A stretch of DNA of 64,000 nt from Styela clava (lineage: Eukaryota), in assembly GCF_964204865.1 (NCBI RefSeq), contig NC_135251.1:11532001-11596000 (forward strand). The letters are read 5' to 3'. Shown piece by piece: positions 42,001-64,000 of this stretch. Position numbers: made by a program. The stretch's first letter is position 1, and each line of letters opens with the position of its first letter.

Positions 42001-45000
42001 CTTCTTGCAATGAATCCCCAGATTCCCTTCGTTGGTTTTCTCATTTGTGAACTTATATATTTAGCTCCAATTACCATTTTGTGTGGTCAAATGTACTAAT
42101 AATATTGAGACATATCAGTCTGACAGGTAAAGATAAATTATTTTCATTGGGCATGTTACAATACAAACTATTAGATTCAATCAGTTGAGAGCCTACAATG
42201 AATAAAACGATTCATCCGCTTGCTGAAATTGTCTACCAACACATGCACACACACATATATACACATACATAAAAATCTACAGCAGTCATTCTTTCGTAGT
42301 AGAGTTTACTACTAATACCTTATGTCTCAAACTCTAAATGCCCTCAAAAATGTCGTGCTACTCACTTGCGTGAATCTCACTACACGCGAATATCCAAACT
42401 CCTATTATACCCATCGTTGTCAATAAAATAGCATGAATTCCCATTCATATATACAGTAATATGCCTAATTTAAATTATTGCCACACAGTGTTGATCCATC
42501 CTAATCAAGAACTGTAGGACACGACATTTTTGAAACATCGTTCATTTATAATGTATTTGGATATCTTTCACACTGTGCCAGCTTTCAAATGTACGTTTGG
42601 TTTGCTCGGATAGATATAAGCGCTAATATGTAGCATCCACCTAAAACTATAAACTACTGCGTGTGTGTCACAGACTCACAACCCAGCCGCCTGAGAACTC
42701 TTGTACTATTTGCTATTTGTTGCACTGAATTCTAATTACAATCTAATACGCAGATCAACTAGCAACTCCTATGGCATTGCGAACGAATGTCTCTGTAAAC
42801 ATGCAGTATTTGTTTTGTCGTATGCTCAGGCATACGTCACTCACGTTACGCGGTTCTGTTAGTGATGAGCTATGCTATGTTCTGAACAGGGCCATATCTA
42901 CCATTAGCAAGGTACATTGATGCCTAGGGGGCATCGTCATATTTTAAACTATCATACATTTTTAAGTTGTTTTTAATTTGTGAACAATTTCCGGTTCGAC
43001 GTTCCAATATACTTTTGACGTCGTTGTTAAAGAGGGGCGTCCTCATCGTCTAAATCCGGCCCTGGCTCTATGTCTAAATCATGCGAATGCTAAATTCTTT
43101 AAAAATCAGCAATCTTAGGTATGATTGTTCAACAGCACATCTAAACTGCCAGCCATATAATAAGTTTTATCTGTAATCGTGCTCAATAGTCCGATTGTAA
43201 TGCTATAGTATTACGTAAATATTGATCACGTTCGATGCGAACTCTCTTTTGTATTTTTGCGGCTTATACAGTACTTGTGTCTACTAGATCATAGGTTCTC
43301 AAAGTGCTCCGTACGGAGCCCCAGTGCTCCGCAAGAGAAACCCAGGGGCTCCGCGAGCTATTCGATTACTTTTTAAAATACTGACTAATTTCGTAACTGT
43401 TCAAAGAAGCAATAACAGCTTTGATAATATATGACAACAGTATAGCCTCGAAATATGGCAAAGAGGCGGAATTAAAAAATGACATTATTTATAAGCAGGA
43501 GCGCAGCAAGGATTCTTAGAGGGAGGTGGTTCAAAATTGGAATCGGAAATTTCCGCGCAACATTTTTTGCGATTAAAAAAACGGATAACGAGATTTCTGT
43601 TGCGTAAAATATTCAATCCATGTCCATGTCCACATATTCAATCGTTACTCACGTTTGATTCGAGATTACTATTAGGATTACTAAAATGAAAGCATACTAT
43701 TCTAAAATAACATAAAATACGTGATAAACTGCCAACTATAAATAAATTGGAGTCGTATTTTTGCGATCTTGGAATTTGTCAAACTTGATTCGTTCTTTCG
43801 CACTTAAGATTATTTTCAAGCAAGATATCGCCGTTTAAAAAATCGCAATGTCTGGGCAAAATACGAACAATTGAAATTTATTTTATTGCATTCGGCTCCG
43901 TTGGTAGTTTCAGAATGAAAAAGGGTACATCGCGGATCGCGCGCACAATTGATTGCGTGCGGCTCCGTCGGTAGTTTCAAAATGGGAAAAAAAGGTACAT
44001 CGCGCGCACAATTGACTGTGTTTCGATTTCGCAGTTACTACTACGATGAAAACCTAACATAACACCAAATTTTGTGATTTACAATGTCTATAAAAGCGTT
44101 TTCAATCTGAGGCGAGTCTGCTGAAACCAAACGTGTGATCTTCCATTTCAAGTTTTAGTTTTAATATTTTAGAATGCCGCTTTTCAATCAAGAAATGTGA
44201 GTTGCGGATTTACCTCTTTATTAATTATTATTTTTAGCATTTCATCGTCGATGACTATAATATGGTAACATATTTTTCACATTCAACTGATGATTCCCCA
44301 CGAGAACAAAAAAGCAATTAACGTCGTCATTGTGTAACAATACATGTATATGCCGATCGACCCCTAATTTATTAGTATGTTTGTCAAGTGTCAAATTCAC
44401 AGCTTTAGTATATATATATAATTTATGCTTAAAATTTAGTTTTATTTATGACTTGCATCAACCCTATTAAAAAAGGTTCAGCATTTAAATTGGGTAAAGT
44501 ACTTTTAACTTGCTCAGGAATATTAATCTGAAAGTAACAATTTTAACATTTATTTTGGGGCTCCGTGAATAATAGTCAACCTTTTCAAGGGCTCCGCAAC
44601 ACCAAAAGTTTGAGAACCCCTGTACTAGATAACAATGCCGCGTCAAAGTATGACCTTTGCAGCCTAGAAAATAGAGCAAAATAGGAACCGCATTTAGTAT
44701 TGCTTGTAACTGATGAGTGGAAGAGTAGCAATCTTCTGAACCTTTTACTTTTCATCATTTCTTTTATTCACAAACATAGTCATCTACTAAGCTGTATACT
44801 GCATACTAATCCGTTTTCTGACTGTTTGCAACACAAAATTATCTGCTAACCATGCATGTTAAAAATATGTTGAGATAGTGATTAGCATATGTGAAAATTA
44901 GCCATAAGCGATACAAATTGAGATACCAAACTGGCTTCAATACATCATCGTTGTGGTGTTGGTGTTTGTTCACAGTGTAATAATTAGATACACAAGGTAC

Positions 45001-63000: not shown

Positions 63001-64000
63001 CATTATCCTTTATTGGACTTGGTATTTGGTGATCGTTTGGATTCTGGCAAAGAGTAGTGTCTTTTAGTAGGTCGTCGTGTGCCTCTGGATATTTTTCATC
63101 GTATTGAAGTTTTGTCGATATTGAAAATTTATCCAATTGGTCACTACCATTTGCGTTTGCTTTATAAAGCTGAACTTGTGCTTTTAAATAATTATCGTGG
63201 TTACCGTTACATTCTTTCGAGCTGTTGTCGATAGTCTTGAATGAAATTAGTTTTTCCATTCCACCGGTAACCTCCAATACGAATACAGAAATAGAGTATA
63301 AAATAACACATATCAACATAACAGAGGAAGCCTTCCAATCCTCATAAAAGATATTGATCGATCCATAACACCAGCGCACACTCATGGACAAAAATACAGC
63401 AATAATAACGCTATTTCCAATATTTGAAGTTGTTAGCAGATTTTTCAACAGTCCCCTGGTTCGCTTGCATATGATCATACAGCCCATTTCCTTCTCAACT
63501 GGAGAATAATTTGAGTTTGGAATTAAAATATCTTCCGTCACAAAATTTTCTTGCTGTTTCCATGCTATTATAATCACGTAAACACTCATGGAAATTACGC
63601 CACATGACAAAACACAAGTTCGAATATCAGCATATTCGTCTAAACATGGCGACGACGATATTGTTAACATTGTAGCAGGAGATACACGCACCAAGCAACA
63701 AATAAGTTTTTTTAACAATCCATTTCGTTGTGATAATATCTTAGACGTAGAAAAAATCAAACTAAATAAAAAATATATGAGTCCGGGAACGCACAAGCTA
63801 ATTAATAAAAGTGCAGTTGCCCAATAGCTGACGCCCAGTGTCTTTGGCTCCGTGTTGTGCCACATGGTAGCTTGAATGAATGCTTGAATAGTCGACCATT
63901 GTGAAGTGAAGATTGCTACTTTTCCGATTGTGTCCAAAGCACTACCAATGGGTATTCCACATGTGGCCATCATATTGGTGTGTAATTTTCCAGCTTTTCA

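What the first reader, a model, noticed from the sequence alone, without database searches (positions are those of the whole stretch)
42905..63273. ~10-kb tandem duplication creating a truncated but open second EEP gene
Seen: the breakpoint falls inside exon 1 and removes the promoter and first ~233 codons (several TM helices) from copy A. An in-frame ATG lies 14 nt inside the breakpoint. Both splice sites and ~718 codons stay open although the copies have accumulated many substitutions, indels and TE insertions in non-coding DNA. Inference: a nascent gene with altered membrane topology, possibly reached by read-through from the co-oriented full-length copy upstream. Caveat: in highly heterozygous animals two haplotypes can be falsely assembled in tandem.
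Basis: partly seen in the sequence, partly recalled or inferred. Interest (0 to 1): 0.7.

Follow-up and report, generated by a model that had tools for sequence, protein, structure and literature searches.

The report
Truncated tandem duplicate of EEP gene
About 10 kb of a sea-squirt chromosome is written twice head to tail, giving a second, front-truncated but still readable copy of a membrane enzyme gene; this is an ordinary young partial duplication, or possibly two alleles joined by the assembler, and nothing yet shows the second copy is used.

Summary
Window 42907-53555 (copy A) and 53567-63273 (copy B) are a head-to-tail direct repeat with no N between them. The gene lies on the minus strand. 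Copy B is a complete two-exon gene (428 + 526 codons), identical to the database protein 'uncharacterized protein LOC120335541 [Styela clava]'. Copy A starts inside exon 1. It lacks the first 233 codons, has an ATG 14 nt inside the breakpoint, keeps both splice sites and stays open for 192 + 526 = 718 codons.

The lost part is the family's best-conserved N-terminal helical module. The cut falls at the start of a disordered linker. Copy A therefore still encodes the rest of the membrane part plus an EEP phosphoesterase domain with every family-invariant residue.

Coding differences are biased to silent changes (dN/dS 0.21), and the only coding indel is in frame. That does not prove selection on copy A. 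The copies differ by about as much as two alleles would (2.3% near the gene; 1.72% reported heterozygosity for this species), unevenly along the unit and symmetrically between copies.

My estimates: real young partial duplication with the open frame inherited or converted, about 0.5; haplotype assembly artefact, about 0.25; expressed nascent gene, about 0.18. Reads and RNA data were not available.

The parts
42907..53555 (.). Repeat unit A (10,649 bp): the 3' three quarters of the gene plus about 7.8 kb of downstream flank
   Evidence: Self-blastn HSPs; boundary alignments; length
53556..53566 (.). Junction, 11 nt (TTACCGGTTAG on the + strand). It is either filler that repeats the neighbouring ACCGGTAA in inverted form, or a diverged extension of the unit's left end (compare 42897-42906). 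No N, and no long homology across the join.
   Evidence: the two readings could not be separated
53567..63273 (.). Repeat unit B (9,707 bp)
63274..63973 (-). The part of exon 1 present only in copy B: codons 1-233, the conserved N-terminal helical module
   Evidence: 11 of the 13 invariant exon-1 columns lie in residues 1-238.
62690..63973 (-). Copy B exon 1 coding part (428 codons), donor CAG|GTAATT
   Evidence: Identical to the first 428 residues of database protein P0016.
62009..62689 (-). Copy B intron (681 nt, phase 0)
60428..62008 (-). Copy B exon 2 (526 codons plus TAA): about five helices, then the EEP domain
   Evidence: Pfam PF03372, 57.8 bits against a cutoff of 24.5; fold model and Foldseek; identical to the last 526 residues of P0016
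52966..53541 (-). Copy A truncated exon 1' (192 codons from the first in-frame ATG). G at -3 and G at +4 around the ATG. An in-frame TAA lies at 53565-53563 just upstream. Donor CAG|GTATTT.
52296..52965 (-). Copy A intron (670 nt)
   Evidence: 17 mismatches in 670 aligned bases against B.
50715..52295 (-). Copy A exon 2 (526 codons plus TAA). EEP domain with all invariant residues. 24 substitutions and no indel against B.
43284..44628 (.). Insertion found only in copy A (about 1.3 kb), with terminal inverted repeats and an 8-bp direct duplication TACTAGAT. The empty site in B reads TACCAGAT.
   Evidence: The label 'hAT-like' for an 8-bp duplication is recalled, not tested.
47340..47650 (.). 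311-bp insertion found only in copy A, with 21-nt inverted ends (a miniature transposon)
53625..54310 (.). Extra DNA in copy B's distal flank, lying 84-769 nt upstream of copy A's ATG. It is composite: 53803-53845 still matches A 42967-43009, and it holds a G+C-rich palindrome at 53853-53919.

Best explanation
This is a genuine head-to-tail segmental duplication of about 10 kb in Styela clava.

Shown:
- The unit holds the 3' three quarters of the two-exon gene LOC120335541 plus 7.8 kb of downstream DNA.
- The join lies inside exon 1 and has no homology across it.
- The upstream copy B stays complete at 954 codons.
- The downstream copy A has no promoter and lacks the first 233 codons. It keeps a 718-codon frame.
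- That frame encodes a disordered linker, about seven helices and an EEP phosphoesterase domain that retains every family-invariant residue.

Inferred:
- The join was made by end-joining or template switching.
- The duplicate is young.
- The differences between the copies are mostly standing allelic variation that came with the two units, or were exchanged later by gene conversion. They had already been filtered by selection on the parent gene.
- The open frame, the low dN/dS and the lack of frameshifts in A are therefore inherited, not signs of a new function.
- Copy A is most likely silent or only weakly transcribed.

The enzyme itself most likely acts as a membrane-bound phosphodiesterase on a lipid or glycoconjugate head group on the luminal or outer face. 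This is inferred from likeness to sphingomyelinase-type and PGAP2IP-type EEP domains. The sequons and cysteines in the domain fit that location.
For: Structure of the repeat.
- Direct repeat with E = 0 HSPs and no N in the window.
- Both units and the junction lie in one gap-free stretch. The junction has no long homology.
- False duplications are reported to be mostly separated by assembly gaps (PMC9516828, passages).
- Copy-specific transposon insertions with target-site duplication show the copies are distinct DNA, not sequencing error.

Identity of the gene.
- Copy B equals the database protein P0016, 954 aa, named 'uncharacterized protein LOC120335541 [Styela clava]'.

Pattern of differences.
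- Near the gene, 84 of 3708 non-coding bases differ (2.27%), with 13 indel events. Reported heterozygosity is 1.72% (PMC7540406, passages).
- Non-coding divergence is uneven: 36/509, 110/2531, 67/3038 and 17/670 (chi-square p = 3.3e-9).
- One identical run of 434 nt lies inside exon 2 (P = 0.006). This is as expected for recombining alleles or conversion tracts, not for one clock-like split.
- Coding: 18 synonymous and 14 non-synonymous differences, dN/dS 0.21.
- In the outgroup comparison of 9 differing exon-2 residues, A carries the family residue at V342 and G432. B carries it at G21, V125 and S429. The rest are ambiguous. There is no excess of change in A.

Expression.
- No promoter-bearing sequence is duplicated.
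- B's first AATAAA/ATTAAA hexamers lie 1013 and 1334 nt after its stop. A's ATG is 6,886 nt downstream of that stop.
Against: - If the differences all arose after the duplication, neutral drift in A is unlikely to leave the frame intact. I expected 7.56 indel events in 2157 coding bases and saw 1, in frame (P = 0.0044). Joint P(frame intact) is about 0.015.
- dN/dS is below the 0.5-0.6 expected if only B were constrained: P = 0.004-0.015 with dS as yardstick, 0.03-0.15 with non-coding DNA as yardstick. This fits selection on A as well as it fits inherited variation.
- The cut falls neatly between two structural modules, and the ATG has a good context. Both make a working product conceivable.
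- The divergence also fits two haplotypes joined by an assembler.
- That the window comes from the assembly described in PMC7540406 is my assumption.
- No read, population or RNA data were available.
Confidence: 0.5

Rival explanations
1. Assembly artefact. The locus is single-copy, and the two units are the two haplotypes of one heterozygous animal placed in tandem.
For: - Divergence near the gene is 2.27%, against a reported genome-wide heterozygosity of 1.72% (PMC7540406).
- dN/dS is low and no frameshift is present.
- Amino-acid changes are symmetric between the copies.
- Divergence is uneven along the unit.
- Transposon presence/absence differences are present.
All of these are what alleles show.
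- The published assembly of this species used PacBio RSII reads and FALCON. The terms 'haplotigs' and 'redundan' were not found in its main text.
- Heterotype false duplications are the main class of duplication error (PMC9516828, abstract and passages).
Against: - There is no N at or near the junction, and none in the 64-kb window. False duplications are most often separated by a gap, only sometimes by wrongly filled sequence (PMC9516828).
- The sequences on the two sides of the join share no similarity that could produce a false overlap. A chimeric read or path would be needed.
- The published assembly is smaller (340 Mb) than its k-mer estimate (407 Mb), not inflated.
Confidence: 0.25
2. 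Copy A is a nascent, expressed gene kept by selection. It makes an N-terminally shortened membrane EEP enzyme. Its 5' end comes from a new promoter in B's rearranged distal flank, or from spliced-leader trans-splicing to an AG just upstream of the ATG.
For: - The 718-codon frame and both splice sites are intact.
- The frame and the dN/dS value are unlikely under free drift after the split.
- All invariant EEP residues are kept, and A even keeps a near-invariant Gly that B has changed to Glu.
- The cut coincides with the boundary between a confidently folded N-terminal module (residues 7-236) and a disordered linker (246-339).
- The ATG has G at -3 and +4. The nearest upstream ATG opens only a 4-codon frame.
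- An AG follows a pyrimidine-rich stretch at 53555-53554.
- About half of Ciona genes are trans-spliced (PMC1488885, abstract).
Against: - A lacks 11 of the 13 invariant exon-1 columns, including R118, R200, N207 and E211. The family keeps this module in the four full-length relatives that were aligned (P0002, P0005, P0006 and P0011).
- No promoter was duplicated.
- The selection signal is equally explained by allelic origin or by conversion.
- A search for 'Styela' with 'spliced leader' and 'trans-splicing' found 0 papers.
- No expression data could be reached.
Confidence: 0.18
3. Copy A's exon 2 serves as an alternative last exon of the full-length gene. B's exon-1 donor (phase 0) splices over about 10.4 kb to A's exon-2 acceptor (phase 0). 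The product is a 954-residue protein that differs from B's at nine residues. A's exon 1' is then merely intronic.
For: - Donor and acceptor phases match, and both acceptors are the same TTTCTTTCAAG|G.
- This would explain the constraint on exon 2: 14 synonymous and 10 non-synonymous differences, no indel in 1581 nt.
Against: - The proximal acceptor and B's own 3' end should win.
- Transcription must pass B's poly(A) region.
- Exon 1' of A is also unbroken (4 synonymous and 4 non-synonymous differences, one in-frame indel). This model does not require that.
- No data.
Confidence: 0.05

Closest known systems
Partial (5'-truncated) tandem gene duplicates, as catalogued among young duplicates in nematodes and flies (recalled from Katju and Lynch and from Drosophila copy-number surveys; no paper on this was read here)
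   Same: Head-to-tail unit of about 10 kb. Breakpoint inside a gene with no homology at the join. The downstream copy lacks the promoter and 5' coding part. Divergence is low.
   Different: The copies differ as much as alleles do in this very polymorphic animal, so age and selection cannot be read from the divergence. The cut happens to fall at a domain boundary and leaves a complete second module.
False heterotype (haplotype) duplication in assemblies (Ko et al. 2022, PMC9516828; abstract and passages read)
   Same: Two adjacent near-identical units whose divergence is in the allelic range, in a heterozygous genome assembled from long reads.
   Different: No assembly gap between the units. 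The join lies inside one gap-free stretch and between unrelated sequences. Read depth and k-mer criteria could not be tested.
PGAP2IP / Cwh43 C-terminal family (multi-pass membrane protein with a C-terminal EEP domain, implicated in lipid remodelling of GPI anchors; PMC10704324, passages)
   Same: Many helices followed by a C-terminal EEP domain. Relatives of the window's protein (Ciona P0005, P0011) pass Pfam PF23226 'PGAP2IP, C-terminal nuclease-like domain'.
   Different: The window's own exon 2 gives no PF23226 match even at E up to 10. Its N-terminal part matches no Pfam or NCBIfam model. The N-terminal module found only 25 proteins in 1.84 billion representatives.
Neutral sphingomyelinase-type EEP enzymes (S. 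aureus beta-hemolysin; human neutral sphingomyelinase 8j2f)
   Same: Best sequence match among solved structures is beta-hemolysin 3i41_A, E = 7.2e-6, residues 343-518. The fold model matches EEP structures, including 8j2f.
   Different: Better fold matches are Nocturnin and TDP2 (E about 1e-11 to 1e-10, target TM-score 0.6-0.7). Only the superfamily is therefore established. NCBIfam sphingomyelinase TIGR03395 scores 13 bits against a cutoff of 248.

Membership tests
EEP superfamily (Pfam PF03372) | Profile match above the curated cutoff over the whole domain | tested here: met
   B exon 2 scores 57.8 bits and A exon 2 scores 59.5 bits, against a cutoff of 24.5. Profile positions 1-225 of 225 are matched.
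EEP superfamily (Pfam PF03372) | Conserved metal-binding and catalytic residues (N/E early, D-x-N in the middle, S-D-H at the end; the catalytic roles are recalled) | tested here: met
   The alignment of 14 sequences has N234, E266, H373, D413 and N415 invariant, and D487, H488, D514 and H515 nearly invariant. None of these positions is among the 9 exon-2 residues that differ between A and B.
EEP superfamily (Pfam PF03372) | Four-layer alpha/beta sandwich fold | tested here: met
   The exon-2 model has mean pLDDT 64.1, higher in the domain core. Foldseek against PDB: 294 matches at E <= 0.001. The top matches are Nocturnin 6bt2_A (E = 6.6e-12, target TM 0.67) and TDP2.
PGAP2IP / Cwh43-C (Pfam PF23226) | Match to the PGAP2IP C-terminal nuclease-like domain profile above cutoff | tested here: not met
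   The window's exon 2 gives no PF23226 match at E <= 10. Relatives do match: P0005 at 38.3 bits and P0011 at 28.5 bits, against a cutoff of 27.
PGAP2IP / Cwh43-C (Pfam PF23226) | Role in GPI-anchor lipid remodelling | not testable with these tools
   Needs genetics or biochemistry
Partial tandem gene duplicate | Direct adjacent repeat, with one boundary inside a gene and the other outside it | tested here: met
   The right boundary is at codon 234 of exon 1. The left boundary is 7.8 kb downstream of the stop.
Partial tandem gene duplicate | Both copies physically present on one chromosome (spanning molecules, full depth) | not testable with these tools
   No reads available. The only indirect evidence is the absence of N.
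False heterotype duplication | Assembly gap, or unsupported fill, between the copies | tested here: not met
   No N in the window. Whether the 11-nt join has read support is unknown.
False heterotype duplication | Haploid read depth and single-copy k-mers on both units | not testable with these tools
   No read data
False heterotype duplication | Divergence within the allelic range of the species | tested here: inconclusive
   2.27% near the gene, 4.3% and 7.1% further out, against a 1.72% genome-wide k-mer estimate (PMC7540406). This is compatible but not diagnostic.
Functional new gene | Own transcript and 5' end | not testable with these tools
   No RNA data. The look-up of the database cluster that might hold a copy-A model could not be made.
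Functional new gene | Purifying selection acting on copy A itself | tested here: inconclusive
   dN/dS is 0.21, and the frame is intact against a neutral expectation of 0.015. Both are also expected from allelic origin or from conversion.

The most novel reading that the evidence does not exclude
Copy A is a working new gene. The duplication cut the protein at a natural module boundary. The second module alone (linker, about seven helices, EEP domain) is then made from a 5' end created right at the junction, for instance by spliced-leader trans-splicing to the AG at 53555-53554. In tunicates that route would let a promoterless partial duplicate be translated from any through-transcription. Selection would now keep both copies.
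Probability: 0.12. Interest if true: 0.55.

Novelty: new member of a known kind. Interest (0 to 1): 0.3.

Why it matters
In itself this is a routine structural variant. Its main value is as a caution. In very heterozygous animals, an open frame, a low dN/dS and clean splice sites in a truncated duplicate cannot be read as selection, because the two units may simply carry two alleles. If the copy proved to be expressed, it would be a tidy natural experiment. It would ask whether the conserved N-terminal module of this small, uncharacterised family of membrane EEP proteins is needed, and whether trans-splicing helps promoterless duplicates become genes in tunicates.

Tried and rejected
Searches and scans that found nothing:
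- Rfam gathering scan of the whole window: 0 matches.
- tRNA scan: 0 genes.
- Tandem Repeats Finder on 42000-64000: 0 arrays.
- Pfam on 10 of the 33 open frames of 55 aa or more in B's 3' flank: 0 families. I found no second gene in the unit. Small spliced exons cannot be excluded.
- Protein Atlas with exon 1: no usable hit.
- Pfam and NCBIfam on exon 1: nothing.
- NCBIfam on exon 2: only sub-cutoff EEP matches.

Calls that failed or could not be made:
- A first global alignment of the two units timed out. I repeated it with faster settings. Its left 1.9 kb is unreliable, so I used the blastn pieces there.
- The listing of cluster members could not be made. I therefore could not see what the three members of the P0016 cluster are, or whether a copy-A model is annotated.

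Paper searches:
- 'LOC120335541': 0 papers.
- 'Styela' with 'spliced leader' and 'trans-splicing': 0 papers.
- A search on partial duplication and unequal crossing over gave nothing I used.

Readings considered and rejected:
- Copy A as a freely decaying pseudogene since an old split. Rejected at about P = 0.015 for frame survival and because A shows no excess of derived residues.
- The short 490-510 aa and 330-490 aa relatives as natural truncated isoforms. They start or stop at the conserved intron position, so they are more simply single-exon open frames called on unspliced DNA. This is an inference.

Not used or not available:
- Genome contigs holds only bacteria and archaea and was not used.
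- Paper supplements were closed. Tables S1-S10 of PMC7540406 may hold assembly details that bear on the artefact question.
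Full report
What is there. The window has no N and is about 35% G+C. A self-comparison finds one large direct repeat. Window 42907-53555 (unit A, 10,649 bp) is followed after 11 nt by 53567-63273 (unit B, 9,707 bp). Identity is 97.2% over the right 5.9 kb and 95.3% over the next 2.5 kb. At the left end there are 85-89% patches broken by large insertions. Other repeats in the window are small and unrelated. The repeat is far beyond chance (E = 0).

The gene. The gene is on the minus strand. 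Unit B together with the 700 nt to its right holds a complete two-exon gene:
- ATG at 63973;
- exon 1 to 62690 (CAG|GTAATT);
- a 681-nt phase-0 intron;
- exon 2 from 62008 (TTTCAAG|GCA) to the TAA at 60430-60428.

I searched and folded the two exons separately and left out the step of joining them. The search with the first 238 residues returned a database protein of 954 aa (P0016). That protein begins with the exon-1 translation and ends with the exon-2 translation, and the two lengths add up to its length. A later search names it 'uncharacterized protein LOC120335541 [Styela clava]'. It is in a cluster of 3 member sequences on one 31.3-Mb contig. The window is therefore tunicate, not human. 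What the other two cluster members are could not be looked up.

The truncated copy. Unit A begins inside exon 1.
- The breakpoint at 53555 corresponds to 63273, which is codon 234.
- The first in-frame ATG is at 53541-53539. It is 14 nt inside the breakpoint and equals residue 239 of B.
- From there the frame is open for 192 codons to an intact donor (CAG|GTATTT, one change at +4).
- After a 670-nt intron it is open for 526 codons to TAA, 718 codons in all.
- Upstream, an in-frame TAA at 53565-53563 closes the frame at the junction. The nearest upstream ATG (53577) opens only four codons.

The junction. The 11 nt between the units (53556-53566) can be read in two ways. It may be filler that repeats the neighbouring ACCGGTAA in inverted orientation, a pattern known from templated end-joining (recalled). 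Or it may be a diverged continuation of the unit's left end, since 42897-42906 aligns with two gaps. Either way there is no long homology across the join, so it is an illegitimate join, not unequal crossing-over between repeats.

The protein family.
- Exon 2 carries a full-length EEP domain (PF03372, 57.8 and 59.5 bits against a cutoff of 24.5). It is preceded by about five long helices.
- The fold model is mediocre (pLDDT 64). Its domain nevertheless matches EEP structures: 294 PDB matches at E <= 0.001, with Nocturnin and TDP2 on top and human neutral sphingomyelinase also listed.
- By sequence, the nearest solved structure is the sphingomyelinase beta-hemolysin (E = 7.2e-6).
- The search with exon 2 gave 14 proteins at E <= 0.001 among 7999 scored candidates. 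The best were unnamed, at 40-43% identity. The named ones were Ciona intestinalis LOC100186503 (31%) and a Clavelina lepadiformis protein (28%).
- The Ciona protein and one other relative pass the Pfam model for the PGAP2IP C-terminal nuclease-like domain. The window's own protein does not match it, even at E up to 10.
- I therefore file the protein under the EEP superfamily and call it PGAP2IP-like in architecture only.
- Cwh43p and PGAP2IP are implicated in GPI-anchor lipid remodelling, and they cluster near sphingomyelinases in an EEP family analysis (PMC10704324, passages).
- Seven N-x-S/T sequons and eleven cysteines lie in the domain part of exon 2. They fit a luminal or extracellular domain. 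This is an inference.

What copy A has lost.
- The first 238 residues found only 25 proteins at E <= 0.001 among 1.84 billion representatives.
- I aligned exon 1 with 15 of the 24 non-self hits. I left out three full-length proteins and six shorter ones.
- 11 of the 13 invariant columns (M1, F32, A35, W38, P43, R118, L122, R200, N207, F209, E211) lie in the lost part. Only P374 and L377 lie in the retained part.
- The same motifs are present in the four full-length relatives aligned: P0002, P0005, P0006 and P0011.
- The exon-1 fold model (pLDDT 66) shows a confident helical module over residues 7-236, with six long helices plus one of low confidence. A disordered stretch follows at 246-339, then two more long helices.
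- Plain hydropathy finds only three clear membrane spans in the lost part, so the number is uncertain.
- If six spans are lost, the remaining seven spans and the EEP domain would keep their orientation. The change would be loss of a module rather than an inverted topology. This is an inference.
- The cut sits almost exactly at the module boundary.

How the copies differ.
- Non-coding DNA next to the gene differs at 84 of 3708 aligned bases (2.27%), with 13 indel events, 85% of them not multiples of three.
- Further from the gene the mismatch rate rises to 110/2531 (4.3%), and to 36/509 (7.1%) in the left-end pieces. The heterogeneity has p = 3.3e-9.
- The coding parts differ at 32 positions: 18 synonymous and 14 non-synonymous (dS 0.039, dN 0.0084, ratio 0.21; P = 2.4e-5 against 1). 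There is also one 6-nt in-frame indel. Counts were made per exon and summed.
- At the non-coding indel rate I expected 7.56 indels in the coding DNA (P(<=1) = 0.0044).
- If A had drifted freely for half of the divergence, the frame would survive with probability about 0.015.
- The ratio is also lower than the 0.5-0.6 expected if only B were constrained. P is 0.004-0.015 with dS as yardstick, but only 0.03-0.15 with non-coding divergence as yardstick. dS is 1.7 times the non-coding rate here.
- A simple dead duplicate that has decayed since an old split is therefore disfavoured.

Why this is not yet a nascent gene. Three other processes give the same picture.

(a) The two units may be two alleles.
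- The published S. clava genome reports about 1.72% heterozygosity from k-mers. It was built from PacBio RSII reads with FALCON, as 710 contigs with N50 758 kb, then Hi-C scaffolding (PMC7540406, passages).
- I assume, but cannot show, that the window is from that assembly.
- Alleles would show low dN/dS, no frameshifts, transposon presence/absence differences and patchy divergence.
- They would also show no excess of changes in either copy. That is what the outgroup comparison shows. A keeps the family residue at V342 and G432, B keeps it at G21, V125 and S429, and the rest are ambiguous. B, not A, has replaced a Gly that 11 of 12 relatives share.

(b) Two alleles can be brought into tandem in two ways. 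One is an assembler error. The other is a real exchange or template switch between homologous chromosomes. In that case the duplicate is born with allelic divergence already filtered by selection on the parent gene.

(c) Gene conversion between the units would have the same effect. A 434-nt identical run inside exon 2 (P = 0.006) and the step in divergence at the 311-bp insertion fit conversion or recombination tracts.

Artefact or real.
- False duplications are reported to be mostly separated by assembly gaps, and only sometimes joined by unsupported fill. They show haploid depth (PMC9516828, abstract and passages).
- Here there is no gap. The two sides of the join are unrelated sequences that could not create a false overlap. 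The published assembly is smaller than its k-mer estimate.
- I put the artefact at about 0.25 and a real duplication at about 0.75.
- Within the latter, a young, probably silent copy whose open frame is inherited is the most economical reading (0.5 overall).

Could copy A be expressed.
- Read-through from B would have to pass B's 3' end. The first AATAAA/ATTAAA hexamers lie 1013 and 1334 nt after B's stop. Transcription would then run 6,886 nt in all and carry several upstream ATGs.
- A 5' end formed close to the junction would be needed.
- The region just upstream of A is B's distal flank, which is heavily rearranged and holds extra DNA (53625-54310). It could supply a promoter.
- In tunicates, spliced-leader trans-splicing to the AG at 53555-53554 could supply a 5' end. 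About half of Ciona genes are trans-spliced (PMC1488885, abstract). I found no paper linking Styela and trans-splicing.
- A further option is that B's exon 1 splices to A's exon 2 as an alternative last exon, since the phases match.
- None of this could be tested.

Verdict. This is a new instance of a common kind of event, partial tandem duplication, in an uncharacterised tunicate membrane EEP gene. No paper mentions the locus (supplements were not searchable). The main lesson is methodological.

What stayed unchecked:
- read depth and junction-spanning reads;
- RNA evidence;
- the annotation of copy A;
- other S. clava assemblies;
- the closed collections (metagenome contigs, viral contigs);
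- paper supplements.

Noticed in passing
window 60431-62008 (-), residue 432 of exon 2 (DLEFKS in B, DLGFKS in A): The full-length copy B has Glu where copy A and 11 of 12 aligned relatives have Gly (the twelfth has Asp). The truncated copy therefore carries the more conservative version of this motif.
   Followed up: partly
window 11831-13324 (+): A single uninterrupted 497-codon frame matches MEIOB N-terminal (PF24903, 97.8 bits) and RPA OB domains. An intronless MEIOB-like gene may be a retrocopy, or simply compact.
   Followed up: no
window 266-844 (+): A 192-codon frame with a signal peptidase S26 domain (71.3 bits), resembling mitochondrial inner-membrane protease subunits (the resemblance is recalled).
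   Followed up: no
window 41267-41776 (-): An exon-like frame with a class I methyltransferase domain (PF08241, 47.6 bits). It is the co-oriented neighbour downstream of copy A.
   Followed up: no
window 11081-11391 vs 22477-22798; 39541-39718 vs 40092-39913: Two further repeats: a direct pair at 73% identity, and an inverted pair at 77% about 200 nt apart. They are probably dispersed repeat elements.
   Followed up: no
window 43284-44628 and 47340-47650: Two transposon insertions present only in copy A. One has an 8-bp target duplication (TACTAGAT; the empty site in B reads TACCAGAT). The other has 21-nt inverted ends. No other copy of either was found in the window.
   Followed up: partly
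alignments A1 and A2 (relatives P0001, P0003, P0004, P0017, P0019-P0037): Many unnamed relatives are either exon-1-like (about 330-490 aa) or exon-2-like (about 440-510 aa). They begin or end at the column of the window's phase-0 intron. This suggests the single intron position is conserved across the family and that these records are open frames called on unspliced DNA.
   Followed up: partly
window 50290 (-), 424 nt after copy A's stop: Copy A has an AATAAA/ATTAAA-type hexamer 424 nt after its stop that copy B lacks. B's first such hexamer is at +1013.
   Followed up: no
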